Below are positions 1-14,432 of a stretch of DNA of 18,256 nt, piece by piece. This DNA comes from a virus. Under the pieces are notes generated by a model that was given only the letters and a program-made list of their open reading frames with translations, was not told where the DNA came from and ran no database searches. The stretch lies in UHGV virus genome UHGV-0117054; one strand, written 5' to 3'. Position numbers and translations under genes: made by a program. Numbering within the stretch: the stretch's first letter is position 1; the number at the start of each line of letters is the position of its first letter.

Positions 1-159
1 GAGTACGCGCTGGCCGACGCCGGTGATTACCTGCTGATTGGTGAATCCACTGAAGCCGACCCGGTTGCTGCTGGCGCTGACGAGGTGCGGCAGGTCATCC
101 GCTATGCCGACACGTTCGAGCGAGTGGCGGATGATTTCGCCATCCTGACGGGGGTGTAG
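1..159 (+). CDS. 3' end of an upstream phage structural gene, possibly head-tail adaptor/connector; 5' end lies outside the window
   Basis: Open frame 1 runs from the window start to TAG at 157-159 (…RYADTFERVADDFAILTGV*), 2 bp before the next gene. Function is guessed from position only. Confidence 0.3.
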   Translation, partial: EYALADAGDYLLIGESTEADPVAAGADEVRQVIRYADTFERVADDFAILTGV

Positions 160-161
160 CT

Positions 162-602
162 ATGGGCATCAAAGTGAAGGGCATCAGCCAGGCGAAAAAG
201 CATCTGAATGACATCATTAACGACGTTCAGGGCCGGAAAGCAGTCCGCGCCATCCAGTCAGCGTTGATTCTTATTGGTGCCCGGGCTGCTTATTACACCC
301 CCATCGATACCTCTACGCTGGTGAACAGCCAGTTCCGGGAAATTGATGCGAGTGGCGTGATTATTACCGGGCGCGTCGGCTATTCGGCCAACTATGCGGC
401 GTATGTGCACGAGGCGTCCGGCAAGTTGAAAGGCCAGCCGCGTGCGCACTTCGGCACCACTCGATCAGGGCAGGAGTTTGGCGGCGGCACCGGGACGGGG
501 AACTACTGGGATCCGCACGGTGAACCTCAGTTCCTGACCAAAGGAGCAAACGAAGAGCGCGATGCTATCGATGCAGTGATGCGCAAGGAGCTTTCGCTAT
601 GA
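162..602 (+). CDS. Head-tail joining / tail completion protein, HK97 gp10-like
   Basis: 146-aa ORF with ATG start, tightly packed upstream of the major tail gene. The motif YTPIDTSTLVNSQF resembles the P-x-DTG-L-x-S signature I recall for the HK97 gp10 family. Size and position fit. Confidence 0.55.
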   Translation: MGIKVKGISQAKKHLNDIINDVQGRKAVRAIQSALILIGARAAYYTPIDTSTLVNSQFREIDASGVIITGRVGYSANYAAYVHEASGKLKGQPRAHFGTTRSGQEFGGGTGTGNYWDPHGEPQFLTKGANEERDAIDAVMRKELSL

Positions 603-982
603 CACCCATGATGCATGAGCGGGTGCGCAACATGTTCGGTGATGCTGGCCTGACAGCCGGATTTACGGTGCAAAAGTTGATGTACGACGACCCGGAGGAT
701 TTGACCCAGGCCGTGATGGTATTCCGGCCAAACGGTGGTTCGAACATCCGTCACGACCTTGGATCTGAACATCACGTCCTCGTTGATGTGATCGGTGCGA
801 AGGATAAGCGCGGCGACGCCGCCGATGCCGTGCAGCGCATCGTCGATTACGTCCAGGCCAACCCTATGGCTGATGAGTGTGTCGGCTACATCCAGAACAT
901 GGGCGCAATCCCTGCGCCGGTGCTCACGGCAGAAGGTCGGATAGTCTTTCGCCTCCAGTTCGCCTGCACCTACGGCGAATAG
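599..982 (+). CDS. Tail terminator / tail completion protein (gpU-like position)
   Basis: 127-aa ORF whose ATG overlaps the upstream stop (ATGA coupling). It sits immediately before the major tail protein gene. Assignment is by synteny and size. Confidence 0.45.
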   Translation: MTPMMHERVRNMFGDAGLTAGFTVQKLMYDDPEDLTQAVMVFRPNGGSNIRHDLGSEHHVLVDVIGAKDKRGDAADAVQRIVDYVQANPMADECVGYIQNMGAIPAPVLTAEGRIVFRLQFACTYGE

Positions 983-999
983 CCATACCAACCAAATAG

Positions 1000-1027
1000 A
1001 CCCGCTCCGGCGGGTTTTCTTTTTTAT
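1000..1027 (+). terminator. Intrinsic terminator/attenuator hairpin upstream of the major tail gene
   Basis: acccgc-tccg-gcgggt stem-loop followed by ttttcttttttat. It lies between the stop at 982 and the SD (aagagga) of the major tail gene. Confidence 0.5.
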
Positions 1028-1047
1028 ACGTCAAAGAGGAAGTTTCT

Positions 1048-1791
1048 ATGGCTAATTGCCAGAACTCGAACGAACGCCTGTTCGGTGGTGCAGTCGTACT
1101 GGAAGTCGCCGATGGTTGCCCGGACGTCAAACCACTCGAAGCTGAGTGGAAGGCGCTGGCGGCCGGTACGTCGAAAGGCTTCGACTTTAACCCGAACTCG
1201 GTAACCTCAGATGCGGATGACGGCGGTGGCTATGTCGAAACCATCATCACCAACAGTGATTTTACCCTGAGCTTCGAGGGTGAGGTCCGCAAGAAGGATA
1301 AGCTGGATCAGTACGGTGTTGGCAAATTCATCAAGTATTTCGCTGACGAGCTGAAGGCCAAGCGCCAGCCCGGTATCTGGGTGCGTATGGACTACGGCCC
1401 GGTAGAATTTATCGGCTACATGAACATCACGGCGCTGAGTTCTGACGGCGGTACCAACGATATCGTCACGTTCTCTACCGAGTTCAAAGTGGGCGATGCC
1501 AGCACCATCGAGGTTAACGAAGTGACAGCGGTGGCGGTGACCGGCGTAACGGTAACCCCTGCTACCAGCACCGGCGCGGCAGGCGGTACCAGCACCTTTA
1601 CGGTGAATATCGCCCCGACTGGCGCAACCAACAAAGACTTCACCGTAGCATCAACCGATCCAACCAAAGCCACTGCCACTGCCTCCGGTACCACCGTCAC
1701 GGTGAACCGCGTCGCCGCCGGCAGCGCGCAGATCATCATCAACACCGAAGATGGAAACTTTGTGGCCGTGCATACGGTTACCGTTACCTAA
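1048..1791 (+). CDS. Major tail protein with C-terminal Ig-like (Big_2-type) domain
   Basis: 247 aa with SD aagagga upstream. The C-terminal ~90 aa is a Thr/Val/Ala-rich beta-sandwich-like region (VTGVTVTPATSTGAAGGTSTFTVNIAPTGATNKDFTVASTD…) typical of Ig-like decorations on lambda gpV-like tail tube proteins. Position is between tail terminator and chaperone. Confidence 0.8.
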   Translation: MANCQNSNERLFGGAVVLEVADGCPDVKPLEAEWKALAAGTSKGFDFNPNSVTSDADDGGGYVETIITNSDFTLSFEGEVRKKDKLDQYGVGKFIKYFADELKAKRQPGIWVRMDYGPVEFIGYMNITALSSDGGTNDIVTFSTEFKVGDASTIEVNEVTAVAVTGVTVTPATSTGAAGGTSTFTVNIAPTGATNKDFTVASTDPTKATATASGTTVTVNRVAAGSAQIIINTEDGNFVAVHTVTVT

Positions 1792-1851
1792 CGGACATTC
1801 CAAAGGGTGGCCTCGGCTGCCCTTGATAATGCTCGTTACCCGGGAAGGAAA

Positions 1852-2526
1852 ATGAATGCACTAATCGACATTGGCGAGTTTTCTGTCAGTGATGGCCGTG
1901 AAGGAGGAAAAGACTACCTGCTGAGACCATCACTGATGGCTATGACGCGGATCGGCAATCCAGCGGAGATTGTTCAGGCGTATGCCACGGTGCACGGTAG
2001 CGATGTTGCTGCCGTCATCCAGTTCTGTACTGATACGCTTGGCCGCTTTCCGGACTGGCTGTCGCCATCCATGAATCGCATCGCAGAACGGCTGCTATCG
2101 CTGAGTATGCACATCATGCAGGCCTGCTGTGATGACGATCTTACCCCGATGATAGGTGAGTGGAAAGGGTGGAGCCGGTACGTTGTTTACCGGCCCGGGC
2201 AGATGCCGAGAAACGACATCATCGTGCTGGCTCAGCACCTTATGCAGCATGGCGTCGTAGGTAAGGCCAGTGTGCGCCGCCTGCAGCGGCATGAGTCAGG
2301 TGAAACGACGAACGAGTTTAAGGTCTTCGACTACATCAGCGCGGCGCGTAGCCACTTCGGCATGAGCCGGGAAGAGGCTGCGGCGCTGACAATGACTGAG
2401 TTTCAGCTGATGCTGGCGCAGAAATACCCCGATCAGAAGGGCTTCACCCGCGAAGAGTACGACGCGGTTGCTGATGACTACCTGAAAAAGCAGGCGGCAC
2501 GCCGGGCGCAGGCGAATCAGAAGTAA
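1852..2526 (+). CDS. Putative tail assembly chaperone (assigned by position); alternative GTG start at 1807
   Basis: ORF follows the major tail gene and precedes the tape measure region. ATG at 1852 has gggaagga upstream; GTG at 1807 has no good SD. No canonical G/GT frameshift partner was found. Confidence 0.35.
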   Translation: MNALIDIGEFSVSDGREGGKDYLLRPSLMAMTRIGNPAEIVQAYATVHGSDVAAVIQFCTDTLGRFPDWLSPSMNRIAERLLSLSMHIMQACCDDDLTPMIGEWKGWSRYVVYRPGQMPRNDIIVLAQHLMQHGVVGKASVRRLQRHESGETTNEFKVFDYISAARSHFGMSREEAAALTMTEFQLMLAQKYPDQKGFTREEYDAVADDYLKKQAARRAQANQK

Positions 2527-2635
2527 TCGGCATTCACTCCGGGCACCTCTTGAGATCAATAAATCAGCAGTTGCCGTTGCGCCTGTGCTATTCCTGGGTA
2601 GGATGTTTCCATTTTTACCAATCGGGAATAGGGAT

Positions 2636-2974
2636 ATGAAGAAGTTAGCTTTGGCATTGCTTGCAGTGGTTTCTTTGGGGGCTTCTGCGTCAAATACGTA
2701 CACAAAAGAACAACTCAACTCAATGGCTGCATCTGGGAGTTACCCAGAACAGGAATCGCCAGTTACTAAGAGCGTTGAGTCAGTGTCATTTGAGAGGTGT
2801 AAGCAAGACACCTACGGCGTTTATAACCAAGTAGCTGGCAATTATCCGGCACAAGAAGTTGTCAACACCGGCATCCTTTACATTGTTAAAATTTGGACCA
2901 ATGACGGCGTGATCATGGTTTCATGTTCAGGGCCTGATGGTAAAAAACTTGTCACTCAATCCTCCTACAAGTAA
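2636..2974 (+). CDS. Secreted/periplasmic hypothetical protein with cleavable signal peptide (moron)
   Basis: N-terminus MKKLALALLAVVSLGASA|SN is a classic Sec signal peptide with an AxA site. The mature part has two Cys. The segment is AT-rich compared with flanking tail genes. Confidence 0.55.
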   Translation: MKKLALALLAVVSLGASASNTYTKEQLNSMAASGSYPEQESPVTKSVESVSFERCKQDTYGVYNQVAGNYPAQEVVNTGILYIVKIWTNDGVIMVSCSGPDGKKLVTQSSYK

Positions 2975-2984
2975 GGGAATATCT

Positions 2985-3317
2985 ATGAGCGAACAAGAGC
3001 AACTGCAGAGTTTGAGTGAAGAGGTGGCCAGAGCATACCTGCGCCACCTGGAAGCAACCACTGGCGGAAATACGGTTACTTACGATGGTGTGACAAGATC
3101 AATTACTCTCGAAGAACTAGTTTTTGGCCTAATAGGGGTCGCACATTTCAATGCTAAAAACCACCCAAACGACGAGATACTAAAAGACCCATATAAACAT
3201 CTCTCGCACATGATTGATATTTTATCAAAGCCATATGTGATAACTGAGTTCGGTCTAAAAGTTATTGAACATATGAATGAAATTTCCATTCATAAACAGC
3301 GTGGGGTGTTGATGTGA
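2985..3317 (+). CDS. Hypothetical cytoplasmic protein (moron)
   Basis: 110-aa ORF with ATG start and SD aaggga upstream. Low GC, no signal peptide. Its 3' end overlaps the next gene (GTG/ATGTGA junction). Confidence 0.5.
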   Translation: MSEQEQLQSLSEEVARAYLRHLEATTGGNTVTYDGVTRSITLEELVFGLIGVAHFNAKNHPNDEILKDPYKHLSHMIDILSKPYVITEFGLKVIEHMNEISIHKQRGVLM

Positions 3318-3691
3318 AAACGGGTGCAATGTGCTTATCTTTGCTGTTTTTAATTTCTGGTTGCGATGATGGCGGAAAAGGAAGTGTAGCTAACGGGGCC
3401 GATACAGCTATAACAATGTTCAAATCATCTATGAGTGAGGGTGATCATCCACCCTTCGAATATCAGCGCCTCGTATTCAAACCAGATCAGCAAAACTCAA
3501 GCAAGGTAATAAGTGGATGGGTTTGCGGAGATGGAAGCATGAAGCGTGATGATAAGACCTTTAACTTTAAAGTTAGAGGTCATGTTATTAAGTCAGAAGA
3601 TATTTCATATGTTGGTGACATAGCCGCACTGCTTTCTGATACTGAAATGGTCAAATACGACATTCTTTACAATAAGAATTGCAAAGAATAA
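3314..3691 (+). CDS. Lipoprotein with predicted inner-membrane retention (moron); start GTG 3314 or ATG 3329
   Basis: N-terminus MKTGAMCLSLLFLISGC carries a lipobox (ISGC). The residue after the lipid-modified Cys is Asp (CDD), the +2 Asp Lol-avoidance signal known in E. coli. Low GC. Confidence 0.6.
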   Translation: MKTGAMCLSLLFLISGCDDGGKGSVANGADTAITMFKSSMSEGDHPPFEYQRLVFKPDQQNSSKVISGWVCGDGSMKRDDKTFNFKVRGHVIKSEDISYVGDIAALLSDTEMVKYDILYNKNCKE

Positions 3692-3711
3692 GCAGGAAGA
3701 AATCTTAACAA

Positions 3712-3737
3712 ACCTCGCCTCGGCGGGGTTTTTTATT
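3712..3737 (+). terminator. Intrinsic terminator ending the moron cluster, just upstream of the tape measure gene
   Basis: cctcgcc-tc-ggcgggg hairpin followed by ttttttatt. The tape measure SD (ggag) follows immediately. Confidence 0.55.
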
Positions 3738-3751
3738 GCCCGGAGATAGCA

Positions 3752-6688
3752 ATGGCAAAAGAACAAAATGCTGGCAGCGTCGTCTATACGGTAAGCGCTG
3801 AGATCGAGCCCCTACTGATTGCTGGTAAGCAGGCCATTGATGTTCTGGATAAGCTGGATGCAGCCGCTCAACAATCTGGCAAGGGAATGGATAGCCTGGA
3901 CCAGAGTACATCCCATACTGGATCGGCGTTCAACGAACTGGCTGGATATGCCAATTCAATGGATAACCAACTGCGTAAACTGAACACCAATGTAAGCGGC
4001 ATAGCTCGCGCCATGGAAGAAGCTCGCAGCGGTACCGGGGGAGCAAACAGCGAATTCAATCGCGCTGAATCTATCATTGAGGCATTGGGTAACCAGTTGG
4101 CAATACTGGACGAGGCGCAGGAGAATGGTGCTCGCAGCGCTGCAGTGCTGGCAGCCCAGTTGCGCGCTGGCTCTAAAGCCACCGACGAAGAGAAGCAGAA
4201 GATCGGCGAGCTTACTGGTCGCTTATATGACATGAAGACTGGCGTTGAAAATGGCGCAAAAGGCACTGGCAGCTGGAAGTCCAGCATGCAGCAGGCTGGT
4301 TACCAGGTTCAGGACTTCATTATTCAGGTGCAGGGAGGTCAATCTGCGCTGGTGGCTTTCGCTCAGCAGGGCTCTCAGCTTGCTGGCGCATTCGGTCCGG
4401 GCGGTGCGATTGTCGGTTCTATCATTGCGCTGAGCTCGGTTATCGCTGGTGTGCTGATTACTTCGCTCAATGGCGGAAAGAACGCCATGGATGCTCTTAA
4501 GAGCGCTGCTGAAACCATGGATAAGGTTATTACCATTTCACAAAATGGTGTGGCCGCCCTCTCTGATAAATATGCCGCTCTGGCACAGACAAATATTGCT
4601 GTGGCAACCTTGATGAAAAAGCAGGCCGAGCTGGAATTGCAGGCTGCTCTATCAAACGTCTCAAAAGAAGTACAAAAGGCATCGAGTGACTTCATTAGCT
4701 TTGGTGATTCATTGATGTCTTCGCTGGGCGGTGGATATGCCAGCGTAAAATTATTTAATGACTATTTGTCCACGCTAAATATAACCACTAACGATTTCAG
4801 TGAGGCATGGAAGCAGGCAGCTGCCAGCGGGCAGGATGGTCAGTCAACGATGAACTCTATGGTGGCAACTGTTGCGGCCCTGTCTACCAAGTTCGATATT
4901 AGCGATCAGAAAGCTTTTGAGTTTGCTAAGCAACTTTCTGACATAGCGAAAACACCAACTGATGAAAAACTTAAGGCATTGGTTGTGACTCTGCAGGATG
5001 TCGGGAATGGGCAATCTTCTGGCGCGGCTAAGGCCCGGGAATATGCCAAAAGTCTCTTAACCATCATGGAGACAAGCACAGACGCTACTTCACGCCTTAA
5101 GGCTCTGAAAGAGATGACTGATAGCCTGACTTCCAGCCAGGATAAGGCGCTAAAAATCGCTCAGCAGGAGCTGTTTATTGCGCGGCAAACTGGTGAGGCT
5201 CAAATGAAAGCCAAGGCTTGGCGAGATGCCGAAACGCAGGGGCTGAAAGAGGGGACGGAAGCATTCAGGAAATACTACAACGTCAAGCTGGCAACCTATA
5301 AACAGGATGCGGCTAACGCTAACAGCAAGAAGGGAGCCAGTAGCGCTGCGTCAGAAGCTAAGAAGTTAGCCAATCAGCAAGAAACGGTGGCGCAAAAGCT
5401 TGAGAATTTGAGGCAGCAATCAGAGCTGACAGCCAAGTCGACGCAGCAACTCAGCCGCGAGCAGGCCATCCTCACTGCCCAGCAATCCTTGGGTGCAGCA
5501 GCAACTCAAAAAGACCTCGATCTTGCCGGACAGTATGCCGCTGCAAAATGGGATACGGCCAATGCGCTCAAAGCGCAGGCCGCCGCCGAGAAGCTCCTGC
5601 CGGAAGCGCGCGAAAACGCCAGCTATAAGCAGGATGTTGAGGATCTGAATACTGCCCTGACCGCGAAGAAAATCAGCCAGGAACAATACAACGAGACCGC
5701 AGAGCGCCTGGAGGCAACGCACCAGAACAACCTCGCCAAAATCCGTGCGCAGCAGGCAGTAACACCGCAGCAGGAGGCCGCTGGCGGCGTCGACCCGGTG
5801 CAGCAGCTGGCGAATGAGAACGCGCGTAAGCTGGCGCTCATTCAGCAGTACGAGCAGCAGGGCGTATTAACCCACCAGAATGCTTTGGCGCTGCGAGCTG
5901 CTGCTGATACAGAGTACGAGCAGGCGCGCATCGCTGCACAGTGGGAGATTTACCGTAATCAGAGCACTGGCAATGAACTGCTGGCCACCTCGCTGGAAGG
6001 CCTGCAGAGCGGGGCAACCAATGCCCTCACTGGATTAATCAACGGCACCCAGAGCCTGCAGGAGGCAATGGCTAACGTTGGCTCGACCATCATCAACAGC
6101 GTGATCGGCAGCCTCGTAGAAATGGGCATGCAGTGGGTTAAAAATCAGGTGATGGGGCAGGCAGCGGCGGCAGCCTCTCTGGCATCTACCATGGCGCAGG
6201 CAACTGCTGCAGCATCAGCTTGGGCGCCGGCAGCAATGAGTGCGTCGATCGCCACGTACGGCAGCGCCGCTGCTGTTGGTCAATCGGCTTATGCAGCCTC
6301 TCTTCTGTCAGCCAAGGGGTTAGCTGTCGCCGGTGCCCGCGAACACGGCGGGCCGGTCTCGGCCAGCTCCATGTACCGTGTGGGCGAAGGTGGCAAACCT
6401 GAGATTTTCAAAGCCAGCAATGGCAGCCAGTACATGATCCCCGGCGATAACGGTCGCGTCATCAGTAACCGCGATATTGGCGGTAGTGGCGGGGGGGCGT
6501 TCAATTACAGCCCGGTCATTCAGGTTAACGGGGATCCGACTGAGCAGCAGTTGGCCATGCTCGAGGCCGCGGTCAAGCGCGGCGCGCAGCAGGGCTATGC
6601 CATGGCCGTCAGCGACGTCGCCAGCGGCAAAGGAAAACTCTCCAACGCTCTGACCAACAACTTCAACACCAGTCAACGCCTCACATAA
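3752..6688 (+). CDS. Tail tape measure protein
   Basis: 978 aa, Ala/Gln/Glu-rich with long predicted coiled-coil stretches. It has an internal hydrophobic Gly-rich segment (…AFAQQGSQLAGAFGPGGAIVGSIIALSSVIAGVLITSL…). The C-terminal region (…YRVGEGGKPEIF…) resembles the lambda gpH C-terminus as I recall it. Confidence 0.9.
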   Translation: MAKEQNAGSVVYTVSAEIEPLLIAGKQAIDVLDKLDAAAQQSGKGMDSLDQSTSHTGSAFNELAGYANSMDNQLRKLNTNVSGIARAMEEARSGTGGANSEFNRAESIIEALGNQLAILDEAQENGARSAAVLAAQLRAGSKATDEEKQKIGELTGRLYDMKTGVENGAKGTGSWKSSMQQAGYQVQDFIIQVQGGQSALVAFAQQGSQLAGAFGPGGAIVGSIIALSSVIAGVLITSLNGGKNAMDALKSAAETMDKVITISQNGVAALSDKYAALAQTNIAVATLMKKQAELELQAALSNVSKEVQKASSDFISFGDSLMSSLGGGYASVKLFNDYLSTLNITTNDFSEAWKQAAASGQDGQSTMNSMVATVAALSTKFDISDQKAFEFAKQLSDIAKTPTDEKLKALVVTLQDVGNGQSSGAAKAREYAKSLLTIMETSTDATSRLKALKEMTDSLTSSQDKALKIAQQELFIARQTGEAQMKAKAWRDAETQGLKEGTEAFRKYYNVKLATYKQDAANANSKKGASSAASEAKKLANQQETVAQKLENLRQQSELTAKSTQQLSREQAILTAQQSLGAAATQKDLDLAGQYAAAKWDTANALKAQAAAEKLLPEARENASYKQDVEDLNTALTAKKISQEQYNETAERLEATHQNNLAKIRAQQAVTPQQEAAGGVDPVQQLANENARKLALIQQYEQQGVLTHQNALALRAAADTEYEQARIAAQWEIYRNQSTGNELLATSLEGLQSGATNALTGLINGTQSLQEAMANVGSTIINSVIGSLVEMGMQWVKNQVMGQAAAAASLASTMAQATAAASAWAPAAMSASIATYGSAAAVGQSAYAASLLSAKGLAVAGAREHGGPVSASSMYRVGEGGKPEIFKASNGSQYMIPGDNGRVISNRDIGGSGGGAFNYSPVIQVNGDPTEQQLAMLEAAVKRGAQQGYAMAVSDVASGKGKLSNALTNNFNTSQRLT

Positions 6689-7168: not shown

Positions 7169-7653
7169 CCAGTCCAACCCTGAACAGGCTTTACGCCAGT
7201 GGCGGCAGCGAGGCGCTACTGAATACGCTGCAGATTACCGTCGGTGGGCAGGATTACTGGCTGGTCGAGAACTTCGAAGATATCACCGCTGTTACAGAGG
7301 CGGGGGCGACAGTGACATTCCAGGCGGCTGCCATGGCCGTCGCGCTGCCAGCCAGGAACAAAGACGGCACGCAGGATCTGCAGTTCGCCATCAGCAACAT
7401 TGACGGCATCGTTTCTACTGCGATACGCAACGCCCTGGCTAACCTGAACAACGGTACTCTGGTAATGCGGCAGTACATATCGACCGACCTTGGCTACCCG
7501 GCGGCACCACCTATCGTTCTGCAGATTAAGGACGGGTACTGGAAGGCGACCGAGGTGCAAATTACTGCCGGATTCCTGAATATCCTGAAAACCGCATGGC
7601 CGCGCTATCGTTACACGCTTCCTGTCTTCCCGGGGCTGCGTTATTTAACTTGA
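7165..7653 (+). CDS. Minor tail protein (gpL-like position)
   Basis: 162-aa ORF, ATG overlapping the upstream stop (translational coupling). Backbone GC. Assigned by synteny. Confidence 0.55.
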   Translation: MTSPTLNRLYASGGSEALLNTLQITVGGQDYWLVENFEDITAVTEAGATVTFQAAAMAVALPARNKDGTQDLQFAISNIDGIVSTAIRNALANLNNGTLVMRQYISTDLGYPAAPPIVLQIKDGYWKATEVQITAGFLNILKTAWPRYRYTLPVFPGLRYLT

Positions 7654-7708
7654 TGCTTGACCCTCCCAGAGTTCAATATTTCTCCTCACCTTAAGTGAAG
7701 GAGGATTT

Positions 7709-8263
7709 ATGCTCGGCTCTCTCAGGGAAATTGTCTTCTCCGTTGCAAAGCATGAAGTTGGACACTGGCTCGCATGGCATTGCTATGGCGGATCTTCGTC
7801 TGGCATCGAAGTAAAAATTCTATCGATTAATGGGCGACACACAGGTGCTTTTATCCCTGATATGGAGTGGGAAGTATCTACTCTGGATGAAGCCTGTAAA
7901 TATGTAAAAGCCAGGCTGCTGTGCCTACACGCTGGTATTTATGCGGAATCTTTCCTCGGTGATATTTATGACGCAGAGCGCATAAGCCGTGAGTTTAACC
8001 ACCTCGGCGCAGCAGCATCTGACTTTCACCGTAGTATTGAGCTTGCCTGGGCTTACTGCAACCTGACAGGCCGCTCAGATCAATACAGCGCGGTTTGTAG
8101 CGAAATAGACCAGGAGGCAGCCAGTCTGGTGGCGGATAATTTTGAATTTATTAAGCACGCAGCGAAGGCGATATCAGACATGGCGGCTTACGAAGGTCAG
8201 CTTATTAAGCTTCCTGACTATGAACTGCAATCCATGTATGAAAAATTTAAACGTCAGAGGTGA
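7709..8263 (+). CDS. Standalone FtsH-like (M41 family) zinc metallopeptidase domain protein, no AAA+ or membrane module
   Basis: HEVGH (HExxH) at residues 15-19. Downstream blocks line up with the E. coli FtsH protease domain as I recall it: EVKILSINGRHTGAF vs KVTIIPRGRALGVTF; LHAGIYAESFLG vs LYGGRLAEEIIYG; LGAAASDF vs STGASNDI; IDQEAASLVADNFEFIKHAAKAISDMAAYEGQL vs [34 protein letters not shown]. Strong SD (gaaggagga), lower GC than flanking tail genes. Confidence 0.65.
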   Translation: MLGSLREIVFSVAKHEVGHWLAWHCYGGSSSGIEVKILSINGRHTGAFIPDMEWEVSTLDEACKYVKARLLCLHAGIYAESFLGDIYDAERISREFNHLGAAASDFHRSIELAWAYCNLTGRSDQYSAVCSEIDQEAASLVADNFEFIKHAAKAISDMAAYEGQLIKLPDYELQSMYEKFKRQR

Positions 8264-8266
8264 TGA

Positions 8267-8437
8267 ATGGAAAAATTAACGCTTTCGGTAAAAGTTGATA
8301 CCACATCATTAGATGAGGCTATCGAGAAGGTCAGGACCTTAAAAAAAGAATTAAGGGAGCTTGGCCTGCCTTACTTCACCGGCAATCCTCTGGCTGGATA
8401 CCAGCCACAACAAGAAGAAAAAGCCACCAACCAATAA
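8267..8437 (+). CDS. Small hypothetical protein (56 aa) co-located with the M41 peptidase gene
   Basis: ATG 4 nt after the peptidase stop, SD-like gagg upstream. Translation MEKLTLSVKVDTTSLDEAIEKVRTLKKELRELGLPYFTGNPLAGYQPQQEEKATNQ. It ends at the terminator hairpin. Not in the supplied ORF track because it is under 60 aa. Confidence 0.3.
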   Translation: MEKLTLSVKVDTTSLDEAIEKVRTLKKELRELGLPYFTGNPLAGYQPQQEEKATNQ

Positions 8438-8460
8438 GCCGCTTGAAGCGGCTTTTTTTA
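8436..8460 (+). terminator. Intrinsic terminator closing the peptidase moron
   Basis: aagccgc-ttgaa-gcggctt hairpin followed by a run of seven T. It sits between the small ORF stop and the NlpC/P60 gene start. Confidence 0.5.
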
Positions 8461-8470
8461 TGAGGCGCCC

Positions 8471-8851
8471 ATGTTCAATCCCGATAAATACCGTTCTGTC
8501 GAGTGGCAGAAGGGCGGACGCGCTTACCCCGCGCTGGACTGCTTTGGCATCGTCAATGAAATCAGGCGTGACCTTGGCCTGGCTCCGTGGCCTGATTTTG
8601 CCGGGGTTACGAAGGATGATAACGGCCTCGACCGGGAGGCGCGCGGACTGATGGCTGGCCTGACGCGATGTGAGCCTGCCCCGGGCGCGGGTATCGCCTG
8701 TTATTCAGGCTCTGTGGTGACGCACGTTGCCATCGTTGTTGAGATTGATGGCCAGCTTCGCGCCGCGGAGTGCAATCCCCGCACTAACGTAACCTTCCTG
8801 CCGCTGGCGCGGTTTGCGCGCCGCTTTGTTCGCGTGGAGTATTACCAGTGA
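8471..8851 (+). CDS. NlpC/P60-family tail-associated peptidase (lambda gpK C-terminal-domain-like)
   Basis: 126 aa. ALDCFGIV supplies a candidate catalytic Cys and VTHVAIVV a candidate His, spaced as in NlpC/P60 papain-like folds. It sits immediately upstream of the J-like gene with a GTGA stop/start overlap. Confidence 0.65.
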   Translation: MFNPDKYRSVEWQKGGRAYPALDCFGIVNEIRRDLGLAPWPDFAGVTKDDNGLDREARGLMAGLTRCEPAPGAGIACYSGSVVTHVAIVVEIDGQLRAAECNPRTNVTFLPLARFARRFVRVEYYQ

Positions 8852-11800
8852 CGATCCGAATCTATCCCTCACGCCTGCCCGGCGAGCCGCTGGAAAAGCA
8901 CGAACACGAAACGATGACCCTCAGCGCCTGGTTTGCGCGGAACGTGAAGGACTGGGCACCGGATCAGCAGCATCCGGTTGCGGTTGAAATCGACTGTGTC
9001 CCCGTCCCGGCGTCAGAGTGGCCACTGTGCGTTATCAAACGCGAAACCGACGTCAGGATGTATCCGGTGCCGTACGGTACCGGCGCAGAAATCGCGATCT
9101 GGGTTGCCGTCAGCGTAGCCGTTGCCTCTGCTGCGTACAGCATCTACATGATGAGCACAATGTCTCAGGCTGGCGGCGGCGGTGCCCAGGCGGCCAGCGG
9201 CGACCAGATTGACCTCAACCCGGCAAAAGCGAACGCGGCGAAGCTGGGAGACCCCATCCGTGAAATCTTTGGAAAATATCGCGTCTGGCCTGATTACGTC
9301 GTGCAGCCGGTAAGCCGGTTCGTGAACGAGACCAGCATGGAAACCAGCATGTTCCTGTGCGTGGGTGTCGGCGACATGGTGATTAACCAGTCAGATATCC
9401 GGATCGGTAATACGCCGATCTCCGCGTTTGGTACCGACGTGCGTTACACCCTCTACCCGCCTGGCGCCACGGTATCCGGCGATACGCGCACTGAAAACTG
9501 GTTCAATTCACCAGAGGTCGGGAATACCGGTTCCGGTACTGCCGGGCTGGACCTTGGCTCAAGCGGACCGGAGACGGTCAGCATTATCGCTGATGCGCTG
9601 GTCGTGTCAGGGAACTCCATCACGCTGGTTGACGTATCGTCGTCTGGCGATGAGGAGATCCCGCCGTCGTGGACCGTCGGAACGGTGATCACCGTACTGG
9701 CCCCAAATTCGTATACGGTCGTGTCGTCCGGCGGTTACAGCATGATTTATGGCGGGATAGAGGAACTTGCACCTTATGTAGGCATGCCGGTGACGCTGAA
9801 CTATAACGGCAATGACTACGATCTGGTGATTGCCAGCTATGCCCCGGGCGTTCCGGCAGTGCCGGGGGTGGGTGGGAGTGCCGCAACCATAACTGCCAGC
9901 GCCGCGCCGACCACCTACGACTTTAGCACCGCGCCTGTGACGTTCAGCATCAGCTGGCAGGGCACGACTTACCCGGTATCACTGGTCACCAACTACGTCA
10001 CCATGTCAGGCCTGGTTTCCTCGATCACCTCCCAGCTCGCAGGCTCTGGCCTGGTAGCGCGCGATAACAGTGGGCGGCTTGAAATCGGCGAGGCCAGTAG
10101 CCCATATGCTGGCGGGTCCATCACCAACAGCCCGTTACCCGTTGCTGTTTTCGGTGATGCTCCGGTTAATACGGCAGGCGTGAAATCAACGGGCGGCACG
10201 ACGGAGGTCAGGGCGCACATTACCCTGGCTTACAACAGCGCCACCGGTACGCCATTCACAGGGCTGCCAGAGGGAATTCAGCGCTTTTCTCTGGGGCTTG
10301 CCGGCAATCAGTTCCGGATCACCGATGTGGACAGCCAGACCATCACCGTAGAGCGGTTGACTGTCACCACAGGTCCTGGCGGCGAGACGATCACGACGCC
10401 GGATCCATCGTGGCCTGGCTTCACCGAGCGTACGCTGCTGGATGCGACCGTGACGGGTGTCAGTGACGATTACGAATGGGTTGGCCCGTTCCTGGCCTGC
10501 CCGGACGGCGAAACGCTGGACGCATTCGAGGTGAACATCAACTTCCAGAGCGGCCTGGTGCGTTATACCGATAAAGGTAACAAGCGCTCAATGCCCGTTC
10601 GCCTGGTGATCCAGTATCGCAAAGTTGGAACCACCGCCTGGCAGCAGCAGTCCCCGTTCTATTCCCGCAGTACTGAAAACCAGATCGGCTTTACACATCG
10701 CTACAGCGTGTCGCCTGGTCAGTATGAGATCCGGATGCGCAGAACCGAACCGGTTAAGGGCGGCAGCACGCGTGACCAGGTTTTCTGGCAGGCGCTGCGC
10801 TCCCGGCTGAGCAAGCGACCCACTAAGTACGACGGTGTCACTACCATGGCGCTGACCGTGCGCACTGGTAACCGCCTGGCAGCCATGTCCGATCGCCGTA
10901 TAAGCGTCACGCCAACCCGGCTTTACAGCGGCGGCAGAACTGCACGGAGCATCAGCGGCGCGCTTTACCATGTACTCGAGTCGCTTGGGTTCACGACCAG
11001 CCAGATTGACACAGCGGCGATTGATGCTCTGGAGCAAACATACTGGACGCCCCGCGGTGAGAAATTCGACTGGGCGAGCGGCGAGAGCAAGTCCGCACTC
11101 GAGGTGCTGCAGAAAATCACTAACGCAGGGATGGGGTATTTCCTGCTGTCTGATGGACTGGCGTCTGCCGGCAGGGAAGGCATTAAACCCTGGGTAGGCA
11201 TGATTACCCCGCAGGAAACCACCGAGGAGCTGCAGACTGCCTTTAAAGCCCCATCGCAGGACGATTACGACGGTGTGGACGTGACCTATATCAACGGCAC
11301 CACCTGGGCAGAAGAAACCGTGCAGTGTCGCCTGTCTGGCAACCCAACGCCGTTGAAAATCGAGAGCTACACGCTGGATGGTGTTCTGAATGAAGACCGC
11401 GCCTACCGCATCGGCATGCGCCGGTTGCTGGGCTACCAGTTGCAGCGCCTGCAGCACACCACCTCGACCGAGATGGATGCGCTCTGTTATGAGTTCATGG
11501 ATCGTATTGTGCTGGCAGATGATATCCCCGGCAGCGAGACGCTGAGTTGCCTGATTACCGATATGACGTATGACAGCAGCAAAATCACCATGACGCTTAG
11601 TGAGGCCCCGGACTGGTCGTTCCAAAGCCCGCGCGTGATTATCCGCCATCAGGATGGCAGGGCATCAGCCATGCTGGTACCGACACGCATTGACGACTTC
11701 ACCATCTCGGTGCCGTACAGCGCCGTGTTGGAGCCGGAATTGTGGGCTATGAACGACGCGTACATTGAACCACCGCGCCTGCTGTTCTGCTCATCTGTTC

Positions 11801-11931
11801 GGGTGCCGTATGACGCTCTGGTCGGCGAAATATCACCGGGTAACGATGGGATAAGCCAGGTTACGGCTATTCAGTATCACCCAGGAAAGTACGCCTACGA
11901 CGACGCCACATACCCCGGCGACGCCGCTTAA
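8848..11931 (+). CDS. Host specificity / central tail fiber protein (lambda gpJ-like) with an N-terminal gpI-like region
   Basis: 1027 aa with GTG start. The central region (…SPGQYEIRMRRTEPVKGGSTRDQVFWQALRSRL…) resembles the NIRMRRMTP block of lambda J as I recall it. The first ~170 aa have a small domain, then a hydrophobic helix (AEIAIWVAVSVAVASAAYSIYMM) and a Gly-rich linker, like lambda gpI. Confidence 0.85.
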   Translation: MTIRIYPSRLPGEPLEKHEHETMTLSAWFARNVKDWAPDQQHPVAVEIDCVPVPASEWPLCVIKRETDVRMYPVPYGTGAEIAIWVAVSVAVASAAYSIYMMSTMSQAGGGGAQAASGDQIDLNPAKANAAKLGDPIREIFGKYRVWPDYVVQPVSRFVNETSMETSMFLCVGVGDMVINQSDIRIGNTPISAFGTDVRYTLYPPGATVSGDTRTENWFNSPEVGNTGSGTAGLDLGSSGPETVSIIADALVVSGNSITLVDVSSSGDEEIPPSWTVGTVITVLAPNSYTVVSSGGYSMIYGGIEELAPYVGMPVTLNYNGNDYDLVIASYAPGVPAVPGVGGSAATITASAAPTTYDFSTAPVTFSISWQGTTYPVSLVTNYVTMSGLVSSITSQLAGSGLVARDNSGRLEIGEASSPYAGGSITNSPLPVAVFGDAPVNTAGVKSTGGTTEVRAHITLAYNSATGTPFTGLPEGIQRFSLGLAGNQFRITDVDSQTITVERLTVTTGPGGETITTPDPSWPGFTERTLLDATVTGVSDDYEWVGPFLACPDGETLDAFEVNINFQSGLVRYTDKGNKRSMPVRLVIQYRKVGTTAWQQQSPFYSRSTENQIGFTHRYSVSPGQYEIRMRRTEPVKGGSTRDQVFWQALRSRLSKRPTKYDGVTTMALTVRTGNRLAAMSDRRISVTPTRLYSGGRTARSISGALYHVLESLGFTTSQIDTAAIDALEQTYWTPRGEKFDWASGESKSALEVLQKITNAGMGYFLLSDGLASAGREGIKPWVGMITPQETTEELQTAFKAPSQDDYDGVDVTYINGTTWAEETVQCRLSGNPTPLKIESYTLDGVLNEDRAYRIGMRRLLGYQLQRLQHTTSTEMDALCYEFMDRIVLADDIPGSETLSCLITDMTYDSSKITMTLSEAPDWSFQSPRVIIRHQDGRASAMLVPTRIDDFTISVPYSAVLEPELWAMNDAYIEPPRLLFCSSVRVPYDALVGEISPGNDGISQVTAIQYHPGKYAYDDATYPGDAA

Positions 11932-11950
11932 CCCAAATCAAAATTATCTG

Positions 11951-11973
11951 ACCCGCTTCGGCGGGTTTTTTTA
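11951..11973 (+). terminator. Intrinsic terminator between J-like gene and tailspike gene
   Basis: acccgc-ttcg-gcgggt hairpin followed by tttttttat. The tailspike SD (ggag) follows directly. Confidence 0.55.
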
Positions 11974-11987
11974 TGCCCGGAGCTAGC

Positions 11988-14432
11988 ATGACCACATATG
12001 CCACGAATAACCCGATAGGGTCCATGGATCCGAAGGACCTTTTCGATAACGCCCAGAATCTGGACTTTGCGGTAAACGATATTACCAAAGCCATCTGGAA
12101 GGACCGTTTTGGGAGGGACAGAAAAACATACTGGGGCATGGAGCAGGCCTTTTCAGCTCAACTTCTAAGCCAGAAGCAGATTGGAGAAGCGCAACTTCAG
12201 AACCAAAAGGAAGAGCTGGATGCGCAGTTACTGTCGCAAGAGCAGCGGTTCAGTTATTTCATTATGAACTCTGGCTACAAATTTGTTGGAGAATACACAG
12301 ATGGGCCTCTAACCGTTACTGACTATAACCAGTTGATTCGCTATCAGAATGAGCTTTATAAGTTAAAGGCCGACACAGCGGTTCCATTTACGACAACCGG
12401 CAAGAATGCCACCTCATGGGTCAATGATTTCGCTCATTTTATCAACGTTGCCGATGCGGCATTAAGGCAGCAAATTGGGGATCCTTACGGGGCTGAAAAA
12501 TACCCAGAACTTCAATTGGCACGTTGGCGTGATGAGGGGGACGTTCGTGGCTGGGGAGCCATTGGTGATGGGTTGAATGATGACACTGATGCCATTTTAT
12601 TATGCTTTGCTGATGCTAAATTACGAGGAGGCCGGACAAAAATCAAGTTCCAGCATGGAACCTACCTTGTTCGAGGAACAAGCCTAATAATCGACTTTCC
12701 AAACGTCTTATTAGAGGGAAATTGGGCAAAACTTAGATTGGTCGACAGTCCGACAGTAATTCAGGGGCCAGTTCTAAAGGTTGCGCAATATGGCAACACG
12801 TCTGTTCGAGGCACGGTAGAAAATGTAACCATCAAAAACCTTGAAATTGATGGCAACAAGCTGAACCAGGTCCAAACCATGAACACGGGAGGGGATGCGA
12901 ACAATCCAGGCTTTGTATCAGAAGACGTGGTGAATCTGCATGTAGAAAATGTTATCTCCCGTAACTGTGACGGATACGGATTTCTCTTCGCTGGCTCTAA
13001 TCTTCCACACCGTAAAGGCGCTTACTTCAAAAACTGCTGGGCACACGGCAACAACGTCGACGGTTTTGACATCAAGGCTGGTTTCAATCATGTCACCCTA
13101 GATAGCTGTCGTTCATGGGATAATGGCTATGCGCCGATGGTTGAACTTCGCTCCGGCATGGGTATCGACATTCGCGGCAAGAACGTCACTCTCCTGAACT
13201 GTGTGGCAGGTGACGAAGGTAGTAATTACGCAGGTAACTTCCGTATCCGTGAAAATGCTCAGGCTGGCATCTCGCTGTTTGGTTGCCACAGCCACAATAG
13301 CCCGGATGGTACTTATGGTTTTATGTGCATTGGTGGTGGTAATACAAATATTTCCTTAGTTAGCTGCACATCCACCAACGATGGCACGTCACTGAAGCAT
13401 GAGCGTGGACATGTCACAGCAGTGGGATTCCGGTCATGGAAACCTCGGCTATTAAGTGTGCTGCAATACCCTTCTCAATTTGTGTTGAGCACACTGACGG
13501 CAGCAGCCACGTTTACTGCCTTTGGTGTATCAGTAACCATTCTCCCGAGCGATTATCTTAGTGCAACCGTGGGGTCTGAAATCAAGATCCCTACTAACAC
13601 CGGTACGATTTACCTACTGGTGAACGAGGCAGTTTCATCGACGCTGGTGTGCACGGTGCTGCGCGGAAATCTGGGGACGGCTGCGGTGGGCGCAAGCATC
13701 ACCACGGTATCGACAGGCAGCCTGACCATAGATGGCGGTATTTCTTATCAGTCTGCCAGCGACGCCATGCAGTTTGCCTCTACGTTACAGACTCTGACGG
13801 ACAGCTCGATGCCAGTAACCATAAATGGCTTTATCATAGAGGCACCAATCCGCTACGGGGTGAACTTCCAGGGTGGTGATGTGAGTTTCTTTGGCGGCGC
13901 AATTCGTAACTGTGGCAAAGGGTCATCCTCCCCTGGATTTTTCGTCGGCAATGCGGCTACTGCTGAATCAACATTCCGGTTGGACAGCGTATTCATGGGG
14001 AATGATGACAAATCATTCACGCAGTCAGCCGGCCTTCAGTTCCAGTCAACAAGCCTGGCGAAAGGGAGCGTTAGAGCGTGTAAATTCGCCGATAATGCCA
14101 ACTCGCCAGTCATTGGCTCGCCATCTTCTGGTGTGCGGTTTGCAGACAATATCGGCTACACCAACGAGGGTACATTCTCTACAACAATTGATGTGACAAC
14201 TGTTGGGGTGAAAACATTCTCAATTCCGCATGGGCTAAGCAAAGCACCTTCTGGTAAAGATGTGCAACTGACCATCCAGCGGTCTGGGGCGGCGAATGAC
14301 TACGTTCTCTCCACTCCGATGATTACCGGAGCAAGCTCTACAATTATTTCTGGAAGGGTGTCCGTACTCACGGCTAGCGCAACCACAGGTGAAGCCGCAA
14401 CAGTAAACGCATTCATCAGCGCCAACCCATAG
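11988..14432 (+). CDS. Tailspike / receptor-binding protein with pectate-lyase-like parallel beta-helix (putative polysaccharide depolymerase); start ATG 11988 preferred over 11973
   Basis: GDVRGWGAIGDGLNDDTDAI matches the GAxGDGxTDDTxAI signature that opens the beta-helix in phage depolymerases. Asn/Gly-rich beta-helix rungs follow (NCDGYGFLFAGSN, NCWAHGNNVDGFDIKAGFN, GKNVTLLNCVAGDEGSNYAGNF, CTSTNDGT). ggag lies 6 nt upstream of ATG 11988. GC is intermediate. Confidence 0.8.
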   Translation: MTTYATNNPIGSMDPKDLFDNAQNLDFAVNDITKAIWKDRFGRDRKTYWGMEQAFSAQLLSQKQIGEAQLQNQKEELDAQLLSQEQRFSYFIMNSGYKFVGEYTDGPLTVTDYNQLIRYQNELYKLKADTAVPFTTTGKNATSWVNDFAHFINVADAALRQQIGDPYGAEKYPELQLARWRDEGDVRGWGAIGDGLNDDTDAILLCFADAKLRGGRTKIKFQHGTYLVRGTSLIIDFPNVLLEGNWAKLRLVDSPTVIQGPVLKVAQYGNTSVRGTVENVTIKNLEIDGNKLNQVQTMNTGGDANNPGFVSEDVVNLHVENVISRNCDGYGFLFAGSNLPHRKGAYFKNCWAHGNNVDGFDIKAGFNHVTLDSCRSWDNGYAPMVELRSGMGIDIRGKNVTLLNCVAGDEGSNYAGNFRIRENAQAGISLFGCHSHNSPDGTYGFMCIGGGNTNISLVSCTSTNDGTSLKHERGHVTAVGFRSWKPRLLSVLQYPSQFVLSTLTAAATFTAFGVSVTILPSDYLSATVGSEIKIPTNTGTIYLLVNEAVSSTLVCTVLRGNLGTAAVGASITTVSTGSLTIDGGISYQSASDAMQFASTLQTLTDSSMPVTINGFIIEAPIRYGVNFQGGDVSFFGGAIRNCGKGSSSPGFFVGNAATAESTFRLDSVFMGNDDKSFTQSAGLQFQSTSLAKGSVRACKFADNANSPVIGSPSSGVRFADNIGYTNEGTFSTTIDVTTVGVKTFSIPHGLSKAPSGKDVQLTIQRSGAANDYVLSTPMITGASSTIISGRVSVLTASATTGEAATVNAFISANP

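What the first reader, a model, noticed from the sequence alone, without database searches (positions are those of the whole stretch)
3712..3760. Repeated terminator-RBS junction cassette preceding the tape measure gene (first copy)
The junctions before the tape measure and tailspike genes share a near-identical arrangement: a GC hairpin, a T-tract, then gcccggag(a/c)tagca and ATG. Compare ggcggggttttttattgcccggagatagcaatg here with ggcgggtttttttatgcccggagctagcatg at 11951-11990. Such conserved linkers could tune readthrough of late transcription into large downstream genes, or serve as homologous boundary sequences for module exchange.
Basis: seen in the sequence. Interest (0 to 1): 0.4.

Follow-up and report, generated by a model that had tools for sequence, protein, structure and literature searches.

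The report
Terminator-plus-ribosome-site junctions in phage tail operon
Two short look-alike stretches before the tape measure and tailspike genes of this E. coli-type prophage are transcription stop signals joined directly to the next gene's ribosome-binding site; they belong to a very common, sharply conserved junction type in phage tail operons, which is mostly ordinary biology with one unexplained conserved motif.

Summary
J1 (3710-3754) and J2 (11950-11990) each hold a GC hairpin, a 9-nt U/A tract, GCCCGGAG, a 5-6 nt spacer and ATG. They match at 37 of 45 aligned columns, and the match extends past the hairpin and T-tract.

They are not a private repeat. It nearly always sits 3-9 nt before a start codon, mostly of tail genes (46% tape measure). 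The T-tract plus AT(T)GCCYGGAG box is conserved while the hairpin stem varies (52 different arms).

J1 is the 3' terminator of a 1.2 kb low-GC insertion. Among 80 related tape-measure loci, all 31 with the cassette carry cargo, and all 42 empty sites lack it. J2 is a fixed terminator between the J-like gene and the tailspike gene, about 98% conserved per position against 62% for neighbouring third codon positions.

The closest relative prophage has a Q antiterminator. I infer that these terminators stop unmodified RNA polymerase in lysogens and are read through in lytic growth.

The module-exchange idea is partly supported for J1 and not for J2. The GCC element and the near-invariant spacer remain unexplained.

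The parts
3710..3731 (+). J1 terminator hairpin: arms AAACCUCGC / GCGGGGUUU (with one conserved U.G pair), loop CUCG
   Evidence: Fold -14.6 kcal/mol, z -4.8. Listed by the terminator scan. 97% identical over 38 nt to the annotated rho-independent terminator after cor in HK633/HK022-type phages.
3729..3737 (+). J1 U/A tract TTTTTTATT: 9 A/T bases after the last stem G
   Evidence: Sequence. In hairpin-only terminators the commonest arrangement is also 9 A/T bases followed by G (37 of 93).
3738..3745 (+). J1 box GCCCGGAG; the Shine-Dalgarno core GGAG is at 3742-3745
   Evidence: Other genes in the window use AAGGAG-type sites; only J1 and J2 use CCCGGAG.
3746..3754 (+). J1 spacer ATAGCA and the ATG of the tape measure gene
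   Evidence: The same spacer and start occur before an unrelated tape measure gene in Klebsiella phage 2b (93% over 51 nt).
2527..3739 (+). Low-GC (about 0.40-0.45) insertion with three forward ORFs (2585-2974, 2937-3317, 3314-3691). J1 is its 3' end.
   Evidence: Absent from CobraSix, where the DUF6246 stop codon is followed directly by ccggagaatgacATG. GC profile. Empty versus filled sites in 80 relatives.
3752..6688 (+). Tape measure protein gene
   Evidence: PHROG 1538, E=4e-183. PGAP annotates the relative as 'tail protein (tape measure)'.
11950..11967 (+). J2 terminator hairpin: GACCCGC / GCGGGUU, loop UUCG
   Evidence: Fold -12.2 kcal/mol, z -3.7. Terminator scan. Majority-base frequency 98.6% across 70 non-redundant relatives.
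11966..11974 (+). J2 U/A tract TTTTTTTAT
11975..11982 (+). J2 box GCCCGGAG; GGAG at 11979-11982
   Evidence: An exact box is present in 72 of 80 relatives of the J-like C-terminus.
11983..11990 (+). J2 spacer CTAGC and the ATG of the tailspike gene (true start 11988)
   Evidence: Relatives have CGAGC followed by ATGAC.
8848..11931 (+). J-like tip/host-specificity protein gene, directly upstream of J2
   Evidence: PHROG 469, E=2e-240. Pfam FNIII-A_GpJ.
11988..14432 (+). Tail fibre/tailspike gene. Its N-terminal region is shared with relatives and the rest is replaced.
   Evidence: Homology with the E. coli 1008S19 prophage continues to 12173 and 12460, then breaks.
8436..8461 (+). Third terminator (AAGCCGCTTGAAGCGGCTT + T7, no box) closing a second insertion (7644-8468)
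   Evidence: The block is absent from the 1008S19 prophage. Low GC.
998..1026 (+). Fourth terminator before the major tail protein gene. Its hairpin is 91% identical to the J2 hairpin, with an interrupted T tract and no box.

Best explanation
J1 and J2 are canonical Rho-independent terminators fused directly to the ribosome-binding site of the next tail gene. They are two copies of a very widespread junction cassette: a 7-8 bp GC stem, a tetraloop, 9 U/A bases, GCC, YGGAG, 5-8 nt, then a start codon. J1 is the 3' terminator of a horizontally acquired, low-GC, three-gene cargo (a moron-type insertion) sitting in the known hot spot between the chaperone-position gene (DUF6246) and the tape measure gene. 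J2 is a fixed terminator between the J-like gene and the tailspike gene. The phage is lambdoid with a Q antiterminator, so I infer the following. The terminators stop unmodified RNA polymerase, meaning transcripts that start in cargo or spuriously in the lysogen. This insulates the tail genes. Q-modified polymerase reads through them in lytic growth, and the attached GGAG lets the downstream gene start translation independently. The hairpin, tract, site and start anatomy, the cargo association and the family-wide conservation are shown. Termination itself, read-through, and the role of GCC as a pause-enhancing +1 G/GC clamp are inferred.
For: - **Anatomy and stability:**
- **Ribosome-site position:** 128 of 130 cassette sites have ATG/GTG 3-9 nt after GGAG.
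- **Tail-gene bias:** downstream genes are almost all tail genes; 58 of 127 are tape measure genes, and others are Stf-like fibres, post-tape-measure genes and J-like genes.
- **Variable stem, conserved box:** stem-agnostic scans give 225 unique hairpins, mean dG -11.4 against -4.7 for shuffles, with 52 distinct 3' arms next to an invariant T-tract plus box.
- **Cargo association for J1:** 42 of 80 tape-measure relatives are empty and have no terminator. All 31 with the cassette carry 370 to over 1500 nt of low-GC forward-ORF cargo. Seven have reverse-ORF inserts and no forward terminator. CobraSix lacks window 2508-3739.
- **Family-wide GC step:** median |dGC| is 0.06 at cassettes against 0.025 at control positions (p=6e-28). 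The upstream side is lower in GC in 37.5% of sites and higher in 1.2%.
- **Known example:** the HK633 copy follows the cor moron and is annotated as a terminator.
- **Antiterminator:** the closest relative prophage has a Q-family antiterminator.
- **Literature:** morons carry their own terminator, and the first moron described lies between the tail chaperone and tape measure genes (PMC3594210). [quoted passage not shown]
- **GCC is terminator-linked:** GCC after the tract occurs in 30% of hairpin-only terminators whether or not a gene follows. G:C at the upstream hybrid edge, Y at the 3' end and G downstream form the consensus pause (PMC4499132).
Against: - No experiment shows termination or read-through at these sites.
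- No convincing sigma-70 promoter was found at the 5' end of the J1 cargo (and inspection), so the insertion is not shown to be an independently expressed moron.
- J2 has no cargo upstream and its GC step runs the opposite way, so the moron-terminator logic does not cover it.
- Conservation of J2 includes the loop and the spacer between GGAG and ATG (93-100% per position). This is more than terminator plus ribosome-site function is expected to require.
- The same cassette occurs in Mu-like and other phages that may lack Q-type antitermination, where it would act differently.
Confidence: 0.72

Rival explanations
1. Partial terminators (attenuators) that set stoichiometry during lytic growth. 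They would lower transcription into low-copy downstream genes (tape measure, tip, spike) relative to the abundant tube protein.
For: The cassette is strongly enriched before tape measure genes (58 of 127). It also occurs before genes of Mu-like myovirus type that may not use Q antitermination. From my own memory, expression of the P22 tail protein gene is controlled by a terminator just upstream (Berget, Poteete and Sauer 1983); I did not retrieve this paper.
Against: The relative prophage has a Q antiterminator, so late transcription should ignore intrinsic terminators. In the tape-measure family the cassette is absent from all 42 cargo-free sites, so the gene does not need it. Both hairpin and tract look like strong rather than leaky terminators.
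Confidence: 0.2
2. Portable boundary sequence. The cassette would serve as a short shared homology at which phages recombine, so that cargo and modules are exchanged at it. This would be an additional role, not an exclusive one.
For: J1 is 97% identical over 38 nt to HK022-type phages and 93% over 51 nt to Klebsiella phage 2b, while neither flank aligns. The insertion joins the recipient exactly at CCGGAG: empty sites read TAA-CCGGAGAATGAC-ATG and filled sites read ...TTATTGC-CCGGAGAATGAC-ATG. More than eight different cargo types share the same right end. Cassette sites are compositional joints. The concept is in the literature (PMC3029335).
Against: At J2 the homology break with the closest relative lies inside the tailspike gene, not at the cassette. 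Only 8 of 2415 pairs show discordance between the J-like gene and the spike gene. Cargo could equally be swapped by crossovers in the conserved flanking genes. Recombination alone does not explain why the sequence stays conserved. The cassette spans distant hosts (Enterobacterales, Pseudomonas, Alphaproteobacteria), where recent exchange is unlikely.
Confidence: 0.3
3. mRNA processing/stability and translation element. The hairpin would act as a 3' stabiliser of the upstream segment after cleavage in the U-rich tract, and the U-tract would act as a ribosomal protein S1 enhancer for the next gene, independent of termination.
For: The whole cassette lies within about 40 nt of the start codon, inside the ribosome's mRNA footprint. 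J2 is conserved at every position including the spacer, which suggests constraint on the translation start region. In a Q-read-through transcript the hairpin would persist in the mRNA.
Against: GCC after the tract is equally common at terminators with no downstream gene. The cassette tracks forward-oriented cargo, which fits a transcription stop. Folding gives no support for a second structure around the ribosome-binding site (z -0.1 and -0.5).
Confidence: 0.2
4. Chance or generic resemblance between two ordinary terminators.
For: The CCCGC-UNCG-GCGGG hairpin and T-tract are generic. The shared TAGCA after GGAG is probably coincidental.
Against: GCCCGGAGNTAGCA occurs twice against 0.01 expected. 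About one in five exact ACCCGCTYCGGCGGGTTTTTT hairpins in viral contigs carries GCCYGGAG at the same offset, where chance is about 6e-5. 11 of 99 terminators with other stems also carry it.
Confidence: 0.02

Closest known systems
Moron elements of lambdoid phages (HK97 gene 15 between the tail chaperone and tape measure genes; cor before stf in HK022/phi80-type phages)
   Same: J1 closes a low-GC insertion that related phages lack, in the same slot as HK97 gene 15 (PMC3594210). The J1 hairpin-to-GGAGA stretch is 97% identical to the terminator annotated after cor in HK633.
   Different: No promoter was detected for the cargo. The cargo has three ORFs of unknown function. J2 has no cargo at all.
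Terminator and 'ant moron' slot immediately upstream of the tailspike gene in P22-like phages
   Same: J2 is a terminator directly before the tailspike gene in a Q-type late operon (PMC2629481 for the slot and for Q control). That the terminator controls gene 9 expression is from my own memory of Berget et al. 1983.
   Different: The phage here is a siphovirus with a J-like tip protein. There is no variable gene block between that gene and the terminator in 80 relatives. No sequence similarity to P22 was tested.
Canonical Rho-independent terminators of E. coli and its phages (for example lambda tR2)
   Same: GC stem, UNCG-type tetraloop, and an 8-of-9 U tract. A G follows the tract at the position matching the consensus pause rule (PMC4499132).
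   Different: A fixed AT(T)GCC extension is followed at once by YGGAG and a start codon. This primary sequence stays conserved while the stems vary.
Short conserved boundary (linker) sequences proposed for phage mosaicism
   Same: A short conserved island at gene boundaries, shared by phages whose flanks are unrelated (concept in PMC3029335).
   Different: Here the island has an obvious function of its own (terminator plus ribosome-binding site). At J2 the mosaic break is not at the island.

Membership tests
Rho-independent (intrinsic) terminator | Stable GC-rich hairpin on the transcribed strand | tested here: met
   dG -14.6 and -12.2 kcal/mol, z -4.8 and -3.7. Family-wide, 90% of 225 contexts fold at -8 or below, against 12% of shuffles.
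Rho-independent (intrinsic) terminator | U-rich tract directly after the stem | tested here: met
   TTTTTTATT and TTTTTTTAT, 8 of 9 U
Rho-independent (intrinsic) terminator | Same orientation as the operon, located between genes | tested here: met
   Both lie on the + strand between a stop codon and the next start codon.
Rho-independent (intrinsic) terminator | RNA 3' ends or transcript release at the tract | not testable with these tools
   Needs Term-seq or in vitro transcription.
Moron (independently expressed insertion in a phage operon) | DNA present here and absent at the same site in related phages | tested here: met
   J1: window 2508-3739 is missing in CobraSix and in 42 of 80 relatives. 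J2: not met, as there is no insert in 80 relatives.
Moron (independently expressed insertion in a phage operon) | [quoted passage not shown] | tested here: met
   J1 cargo is 0.39-0.46 against 0.55-0.60 in the flanks. Cargo in relatives is 0.37-0.45.
Moron (independently expressed insertion in a phage operon) | Own terminator at the 3' end | tested here: met
   All 31 forward-cargo inserts end in the cassette, and the 7 reverse-ORF inserts do not.
Moron (independently expressed insertion in a phage operon) | Own promoter; expression from the repressed prophage | tested here: inconclusive
   No sigma-70-like site passed the scan at 2527-2640. By eye the best candidates are weak. Expression is not testable here.
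Conserved boundary sequences for homologous module exchange | Short sequence shared by phages whose flanks are unrelated | tested here: met
Conserved boundary sequences for homologous module exchange | Mosaic breakpoints coincide with the sequence | tested here: inconclusive
   Yes at J1. No at J2, where the break is inside the tailspike gene. Family-wide there is a GC step at cassettes.
Host repeated extragenic elements (REP/BIME-like) | Many copies in host intergenic regions outside prophages | tested here: not met
   J1 is found in 15 of 5426 E. coli genomes and J2 in 2. Where a feature is annotated under the match it is a tape measure or tail fibre gene; about 10 of the 15 J1 hits list no feature under the match.
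Any curated RNA family (Rfam 15) | Match at the gathering score | tested here: not met
   No match anywhere in the window.

The most novel reading that the evidence does not exclude
The stretch 'U/A tract of 9, GCC, YGGAG' may be a discrete functional module conserved across phages of Proteobacteria. In this reading the G at +10 and the GC clamp enforce pausing and termination for unmodified polymerase, and the abutting GGAG guarantees an independent translation restart. The same 17-40 nt unit would also serve as the portable right-hand joint through which cargo genes are plugged into tail operons. Its nucleotide-level conservation (98% per position at J2, including the loop and spacer) would then reflect a sequence-specific requirement not yet described for intrinsic terminators.
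Probability: 0.22. Interest if true: 0.6.

Novelty: new variant of a known kind. Interest (0 to 1): 0.38.

Why it matters
If the explanation holds, it gives a simple, searchable signature (hairpin, 9 U/A, GCCYGGAG, start codon). That signature marks the 3' ends of accessory cargo and the starts of tape measure and fibre genes in temperate phages of many Proteobacteria, which is useful for annotation and for finding morons.

The conserved GCC at +10 is a testable candidate for a downstream determinant of termination efficiency, of interest for terminator design.

The cargo slot before the tape measure gene holds many different unknown low-GC genes ending in the same cassette. It is a ready source of candidate lysogen-expressed exclusion or defence genes.

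None of this overturns current understanding. Terminators at moron ends and before tail fibre genes are already known.

Tried and rejected
- **Second small hairpin presenting the ribosome-binding site** (ATTGC...GCAAT in J1, ATGC...GCAT in J2). The paired indels looked compensatory. But the folds are no better than shuffles (z -0.08 and -0.54), and relatives do not keep the pairing.
- **Pairing of the box CCGGAG with the hairpin loop CUUCGG/CUCCGG** to sequester the ribosome-binding site. It appears in the J2 minimum-energy fold. However, it follows automatically from a UNCG tetraloop closed by C-G, it fails when the box is CCTGGAG, and loop variants (UACG, CUCG) are not compensated.
- **Rfam.** No family matched.
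- **Host repeat element.** Rejected.
- **Broad tape-measure alignment for an unbiased locus search.** It had no usable conserved stretch, so I used a narrower alignment.
- **MAFFT alignment of 94 cassettes.** It came out ungapped with stems out of register, so formal covariation counting was not meaningful. Per-sequence folding against shuffles replaced it.
- **Megablast of consensus 38-mers against named phages.** It gave almost nothing.
- **Searching papers for the printed box sequence.** Only an unrelated primer was found.
- **Cargo proteins against Pfam and PADLOC.** No hits for the window's three cargo ORFs.
Full report
**The window**

It is the tail module of a temperate siphovirus. The genes in order are:
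- neck and tail-terminator genes;
- major tail protein (1048-1791);
- a DUF6246 gene in the chaperone position (1807-2526);
- three small ORFs of unknown function (2585-3691);
- tape measure protein (3752-6688);
- minor tail proteins;
- a J-like tip protein (8848-11931);
- a tail fibre/spike protein with weak beta-helix hits (11988-14432);
- a 609-aa ORF, a UmuD-like gene and an Sf6/HK620-type integrase.

The closest annotated relative is a prophage at argW in E. coli 1008S19. It is 98% identical over window 1-4575 and 16761-18256. It is lambdoid, with CI/Cro/CII, NinH, RusA, a Q-family antiterminator and lambda-type lysis genes.

- J1 reads AAACCTCGC-CTCG-GCGGGGTTT-TTTATT-GCCCGGAG-ATAGCA-ATG (3710-3754).
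- J2 reads GACCCGC-TTCG-GCGGGTT-TTTTTAT-GCCCGGAG-CTAGC-ATG (11950-11990).
- They align at 37 of 45 columns. After the T-tract it is 16 of 19.
- GCCCGGAGNTAGCA occurs twice against 0.01 expected.
- The hairpins are stable: -14.6 and -12.2 kcal/mol, z -4.8 and -3.7.
- Two further terminator-like hairpins lie on the same strand just before genes, at 998-1017 and 8436-8454. Neither has the box.
- All other genes in the window use AAGGAG-type ribosome-binding sites. Only J1 and J2 use CCCGGAG.

**The pair belongs to a very large family**

Hosts included Enterobacterales, many Pseudomonas, Marinobacter, Halomonadaceae, Delftia, Paraburkholderia and some Alphaproteobacteria.
- All counts below are lower bounds, and all proportions come from the first rows in database order.
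- In 130 held sites, 128 have ATG or GTG 3-9 nt after GGAG.
- The downstream proteins fall into 23 clusters. 58 of 127 are tape measure proteins from several unrelated N-terminal families. Most of the rest are other tail proteins: Stf-like side fibres, the gene after the tape measure gene, Mu-type DNA-circulation-like proteins, and M-, I- and J-like proteins.
- The upstream ORFs fall into 59 clusters. Many look like secreted or lipoproteins, or are unknown.

**What is conserved is the T-tract plus box, not the stem**

- Among exact ACCCGCTYCGGCGGGTTTTTT hairpins, roughly one in five carries GCCYGGAG at the fixed offset. Many more carry near-variants.
- Stem-agnostic scans for T6ATTGCCYGGAG and T7ATGCCYGGAG gave 240 non-redundant sites. 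Of these, 140 have other stems, and 138 of those 140 have a hairpin of -6 kcal/mol or better directly upstream.
- Over 225 unique contexts the mean dG is -11.4, against -4.7 for shuffles. There are 52 different 3' arms, mostly 7-8 bp stems with tetraloops.
- In a box-depleted sample of the same hairpin, GCC follows the A/T tract in 30% of cases whether or not a gene follows. The commonest layout is exactly 9 A/T bases and then G (37 of 93).
- GCC therefore goes with the terminator, and GGAG is appended right after it.
- My inference concerns the consensus pause. With the RNA 3' end on the last U, the last stem G sits at -10, a pyrimidine at -1 and G at +1. This is the consensus pause arrangement, in which a downstream G:C hinders translocation. 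A CRE-pocket mutant that loses +1G recognition lowers termination at lambda tR2 (PMC4499132). This link is not tested here.

**J1 is the terminator of inserted cargo**

- CobraSix has the DUF6246 stop codon followed at once by ccggagaatgacATG. The window carries 1.2 kb of 0.40-0.45 GC DNA in between, ending in J1.
- I took a sample chosen by protein only: 80 viral loci whose tape measure N-terminus is 84-100% identical to the window's.
  - 42 are empty and have no terminator.
  - 31 have the cassette. All 31 carry 370 to over 1500 nt of low-GC DNA with forward ORFs of at least eight different kinds.
  - 7 carry 334- or 412-nt inserts with no forward terminator; in the 334-nt type (4 loci) the only ORF is reverse-oriented, and no ORF of at least 45 aa was found in the 412-nt type (3 loci).
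- Filled and empty sites join at CCGGAG: TAA-CCGGAGAATGAC-ATG against ...TTATTGC-CCGGAGAATGAC-ATG.
- Across 253 non-redundant cassette sites, the GC step is larger than at control positions: median 0.06 against 0.025, at least 0.10 in 27% against 2%, p=6e-28. The step is one-sided, with upstream lower in 37.5% and higher in 1.2%.
- This matches the published moron architecture. The first moron described sits in this same slot (PMC3594210).
- The J1-type copy in HK633/HK022-type phages follows the cor moron and is annotated as a terminator.
- The window's second low-GC block (7644-8468) is likewise absent from the 1008S19 prophage. It ends in the 8436 terminator.

**J2 is different**

- In 80 loci chosen by the C-terminus of the J-like protein (74-98% identity), 76 have the terminator about 20 nt after the stop codon, with no insert. 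72 have the exact box.
- Across 70 non-redundant junctions the majority-base frequencies are:

| Region | Majority-base frequency |
|---|---|
| Hairpin | 98.6% |
| 18 nt from tract end to ATG | 98.4% |
| 3' end of the J-like gene and spacer | 74-77% |
| Tailspike coding, codon positions 1 and 2 | 89% |
| Tailspike coding, third positions | 62% |

- 39 of the 70 share one identical 40-mer.
- This is strong purifying selection on every position, including the loop and the spacer. Terminator plus ribosome-binding site explains only part of it, so I flag it as unexplained.
- Homology with the 1008S19 prophage runs through J2 to 12173 and 12460, then breaks. Here the tailspike was exchanged inside the gene, behind its N-terminal domain, and not at the cassette.

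**How it most likely works**

- *Shown:* the anatomy, the position before start codons, the association with forward cargo, the GC step, the conservation, and a Q gene in the relative.
- *Inferred:* in the lysogen, unmodified polymerase starting in cargo or at stray promoters terminates at J1 and J2, so tail genes stay silent. After induction, Q-modified polymerase reads through. GGAG then gives the tape measure and tailspike genes an independent translation start.
- An attenuator role in lytic growth is unlikely in this phage. It is possible in relatives without Q-type antitermination.
- A boundary-homology role is plausible as a by-product at J1. The evidence is the conserved island with unrelated flanks and the shared right end for many cargos. 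It is not supported at J2.

**Novelty**

- Terminators at moron ends and before tail fibre or spike genes are known (PMC3594210, PMC2629481; GenBank annotation of HK633).
- I found no description of the recurrent U/A9-GCCYGGAG box. No paper in the library prints it and Rfam has no matching family.
- The finding is therefore a known kind of element, with a family-level regularity that appears undescribed and is only partly explained.

Noticed in passing
window 2527-3739: The cargo before the tape measure gene has three forward ORFs (about 112, 108 and 125 aa; PHROGs 21923 and 19131 of unknown function, the third with no family). None has a Pfam or PADLOC hit. Relatives carry at least eight other cargo types in the same slot, including signal-peptide or lipoprotein-like proteins and a NYN-domain protein.
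   Followed up: partly
window 2537-2544 and 3738-3745: An inverted copy of the box (CTCCGGGC) lies 11 nt after the DUF6246 stop codon, at the left edge of the cargo. It is perfectly complementary to GCCCGGAG at the right edge. In close relatives the left junction starts TAA-CCGG, so the insert is also flanked by a direct CCGG. Other cargo types lack the inverted copy, so this may be chance.
   Followed up: partly
window 7644-8468: A second low-GC insertion, absent from the E. coli 1008S19 prophage. It holds a 184-aa ORF (7709-8263, PHROG 36675, unknown function) with a strong GAAGGAGGA site, and ends in a terminator at 8436-8454 placed directly before the next tail gene.
   Followed up: partly
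window 2600-2638; L484, L492, L505, L536, L547 (first 70 nt after the DUF6246 stop codon): The 5' leader of the cargo is also semi-conserved across different cargo ORFs (...tccctgctactcttttggcacatttatcaaatgggatagggatATG; the window has ...gggaatagggatATG). Both ends of the slot therefore carry short shared sequences.
   Followed up: no
window 998-1026: The terminator before the major tail protein gene has a hairpin 91% identical over 23 nt to the J2 hairpin. Its T tract is interrupted (TTTTCTTTTTT), it has no GCCYGGAG box, and it is followed by an ordinary GAGGAAG site. It is also present in the 1008S19 prophage.
   Followed up: partly
window 14433-16760: A low-GC (0.37-0.47) block after the tailspike gene holds a 609-aa ORF (14898-16727) with only a sub-threshold asparagine-synthase-like hit. 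In the 1008S19 prophage this position holds an acyltransferase instead. It is likely a lysogenic-conversion slot.
   Followed up: no
window 4576-5413: An internal part of the tape measure gene has no DNA match to the otherwise 84-98% identical 1008S19 prophage. This is a replaced segment inside the gene, and GC dips to 0.44 there.
   Followed up: no
L004 14605-14650 (Enterobacter phage ENT1): A J2-like cassette (ACCCGCTTCGGCGGGTTTTTTAATGCCTGGAGCTTAGATG) sits after the tape measure gene, before the next tail gene. The window has no terminator at that junction. In the window's own relatives the cassette thus appears at different junctions.
   Followed up: partly
window 11973-11990: The mechanical ORF list starts the tailspike gene at ATG 11973, which lies inside the TATGCCC part of the box and is in frame with ATG 11988. 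It has no ribosome-binding site, so the real start is 11988. The same trap applies to many T7-ATGCC cassettes.
   Followed up: yes
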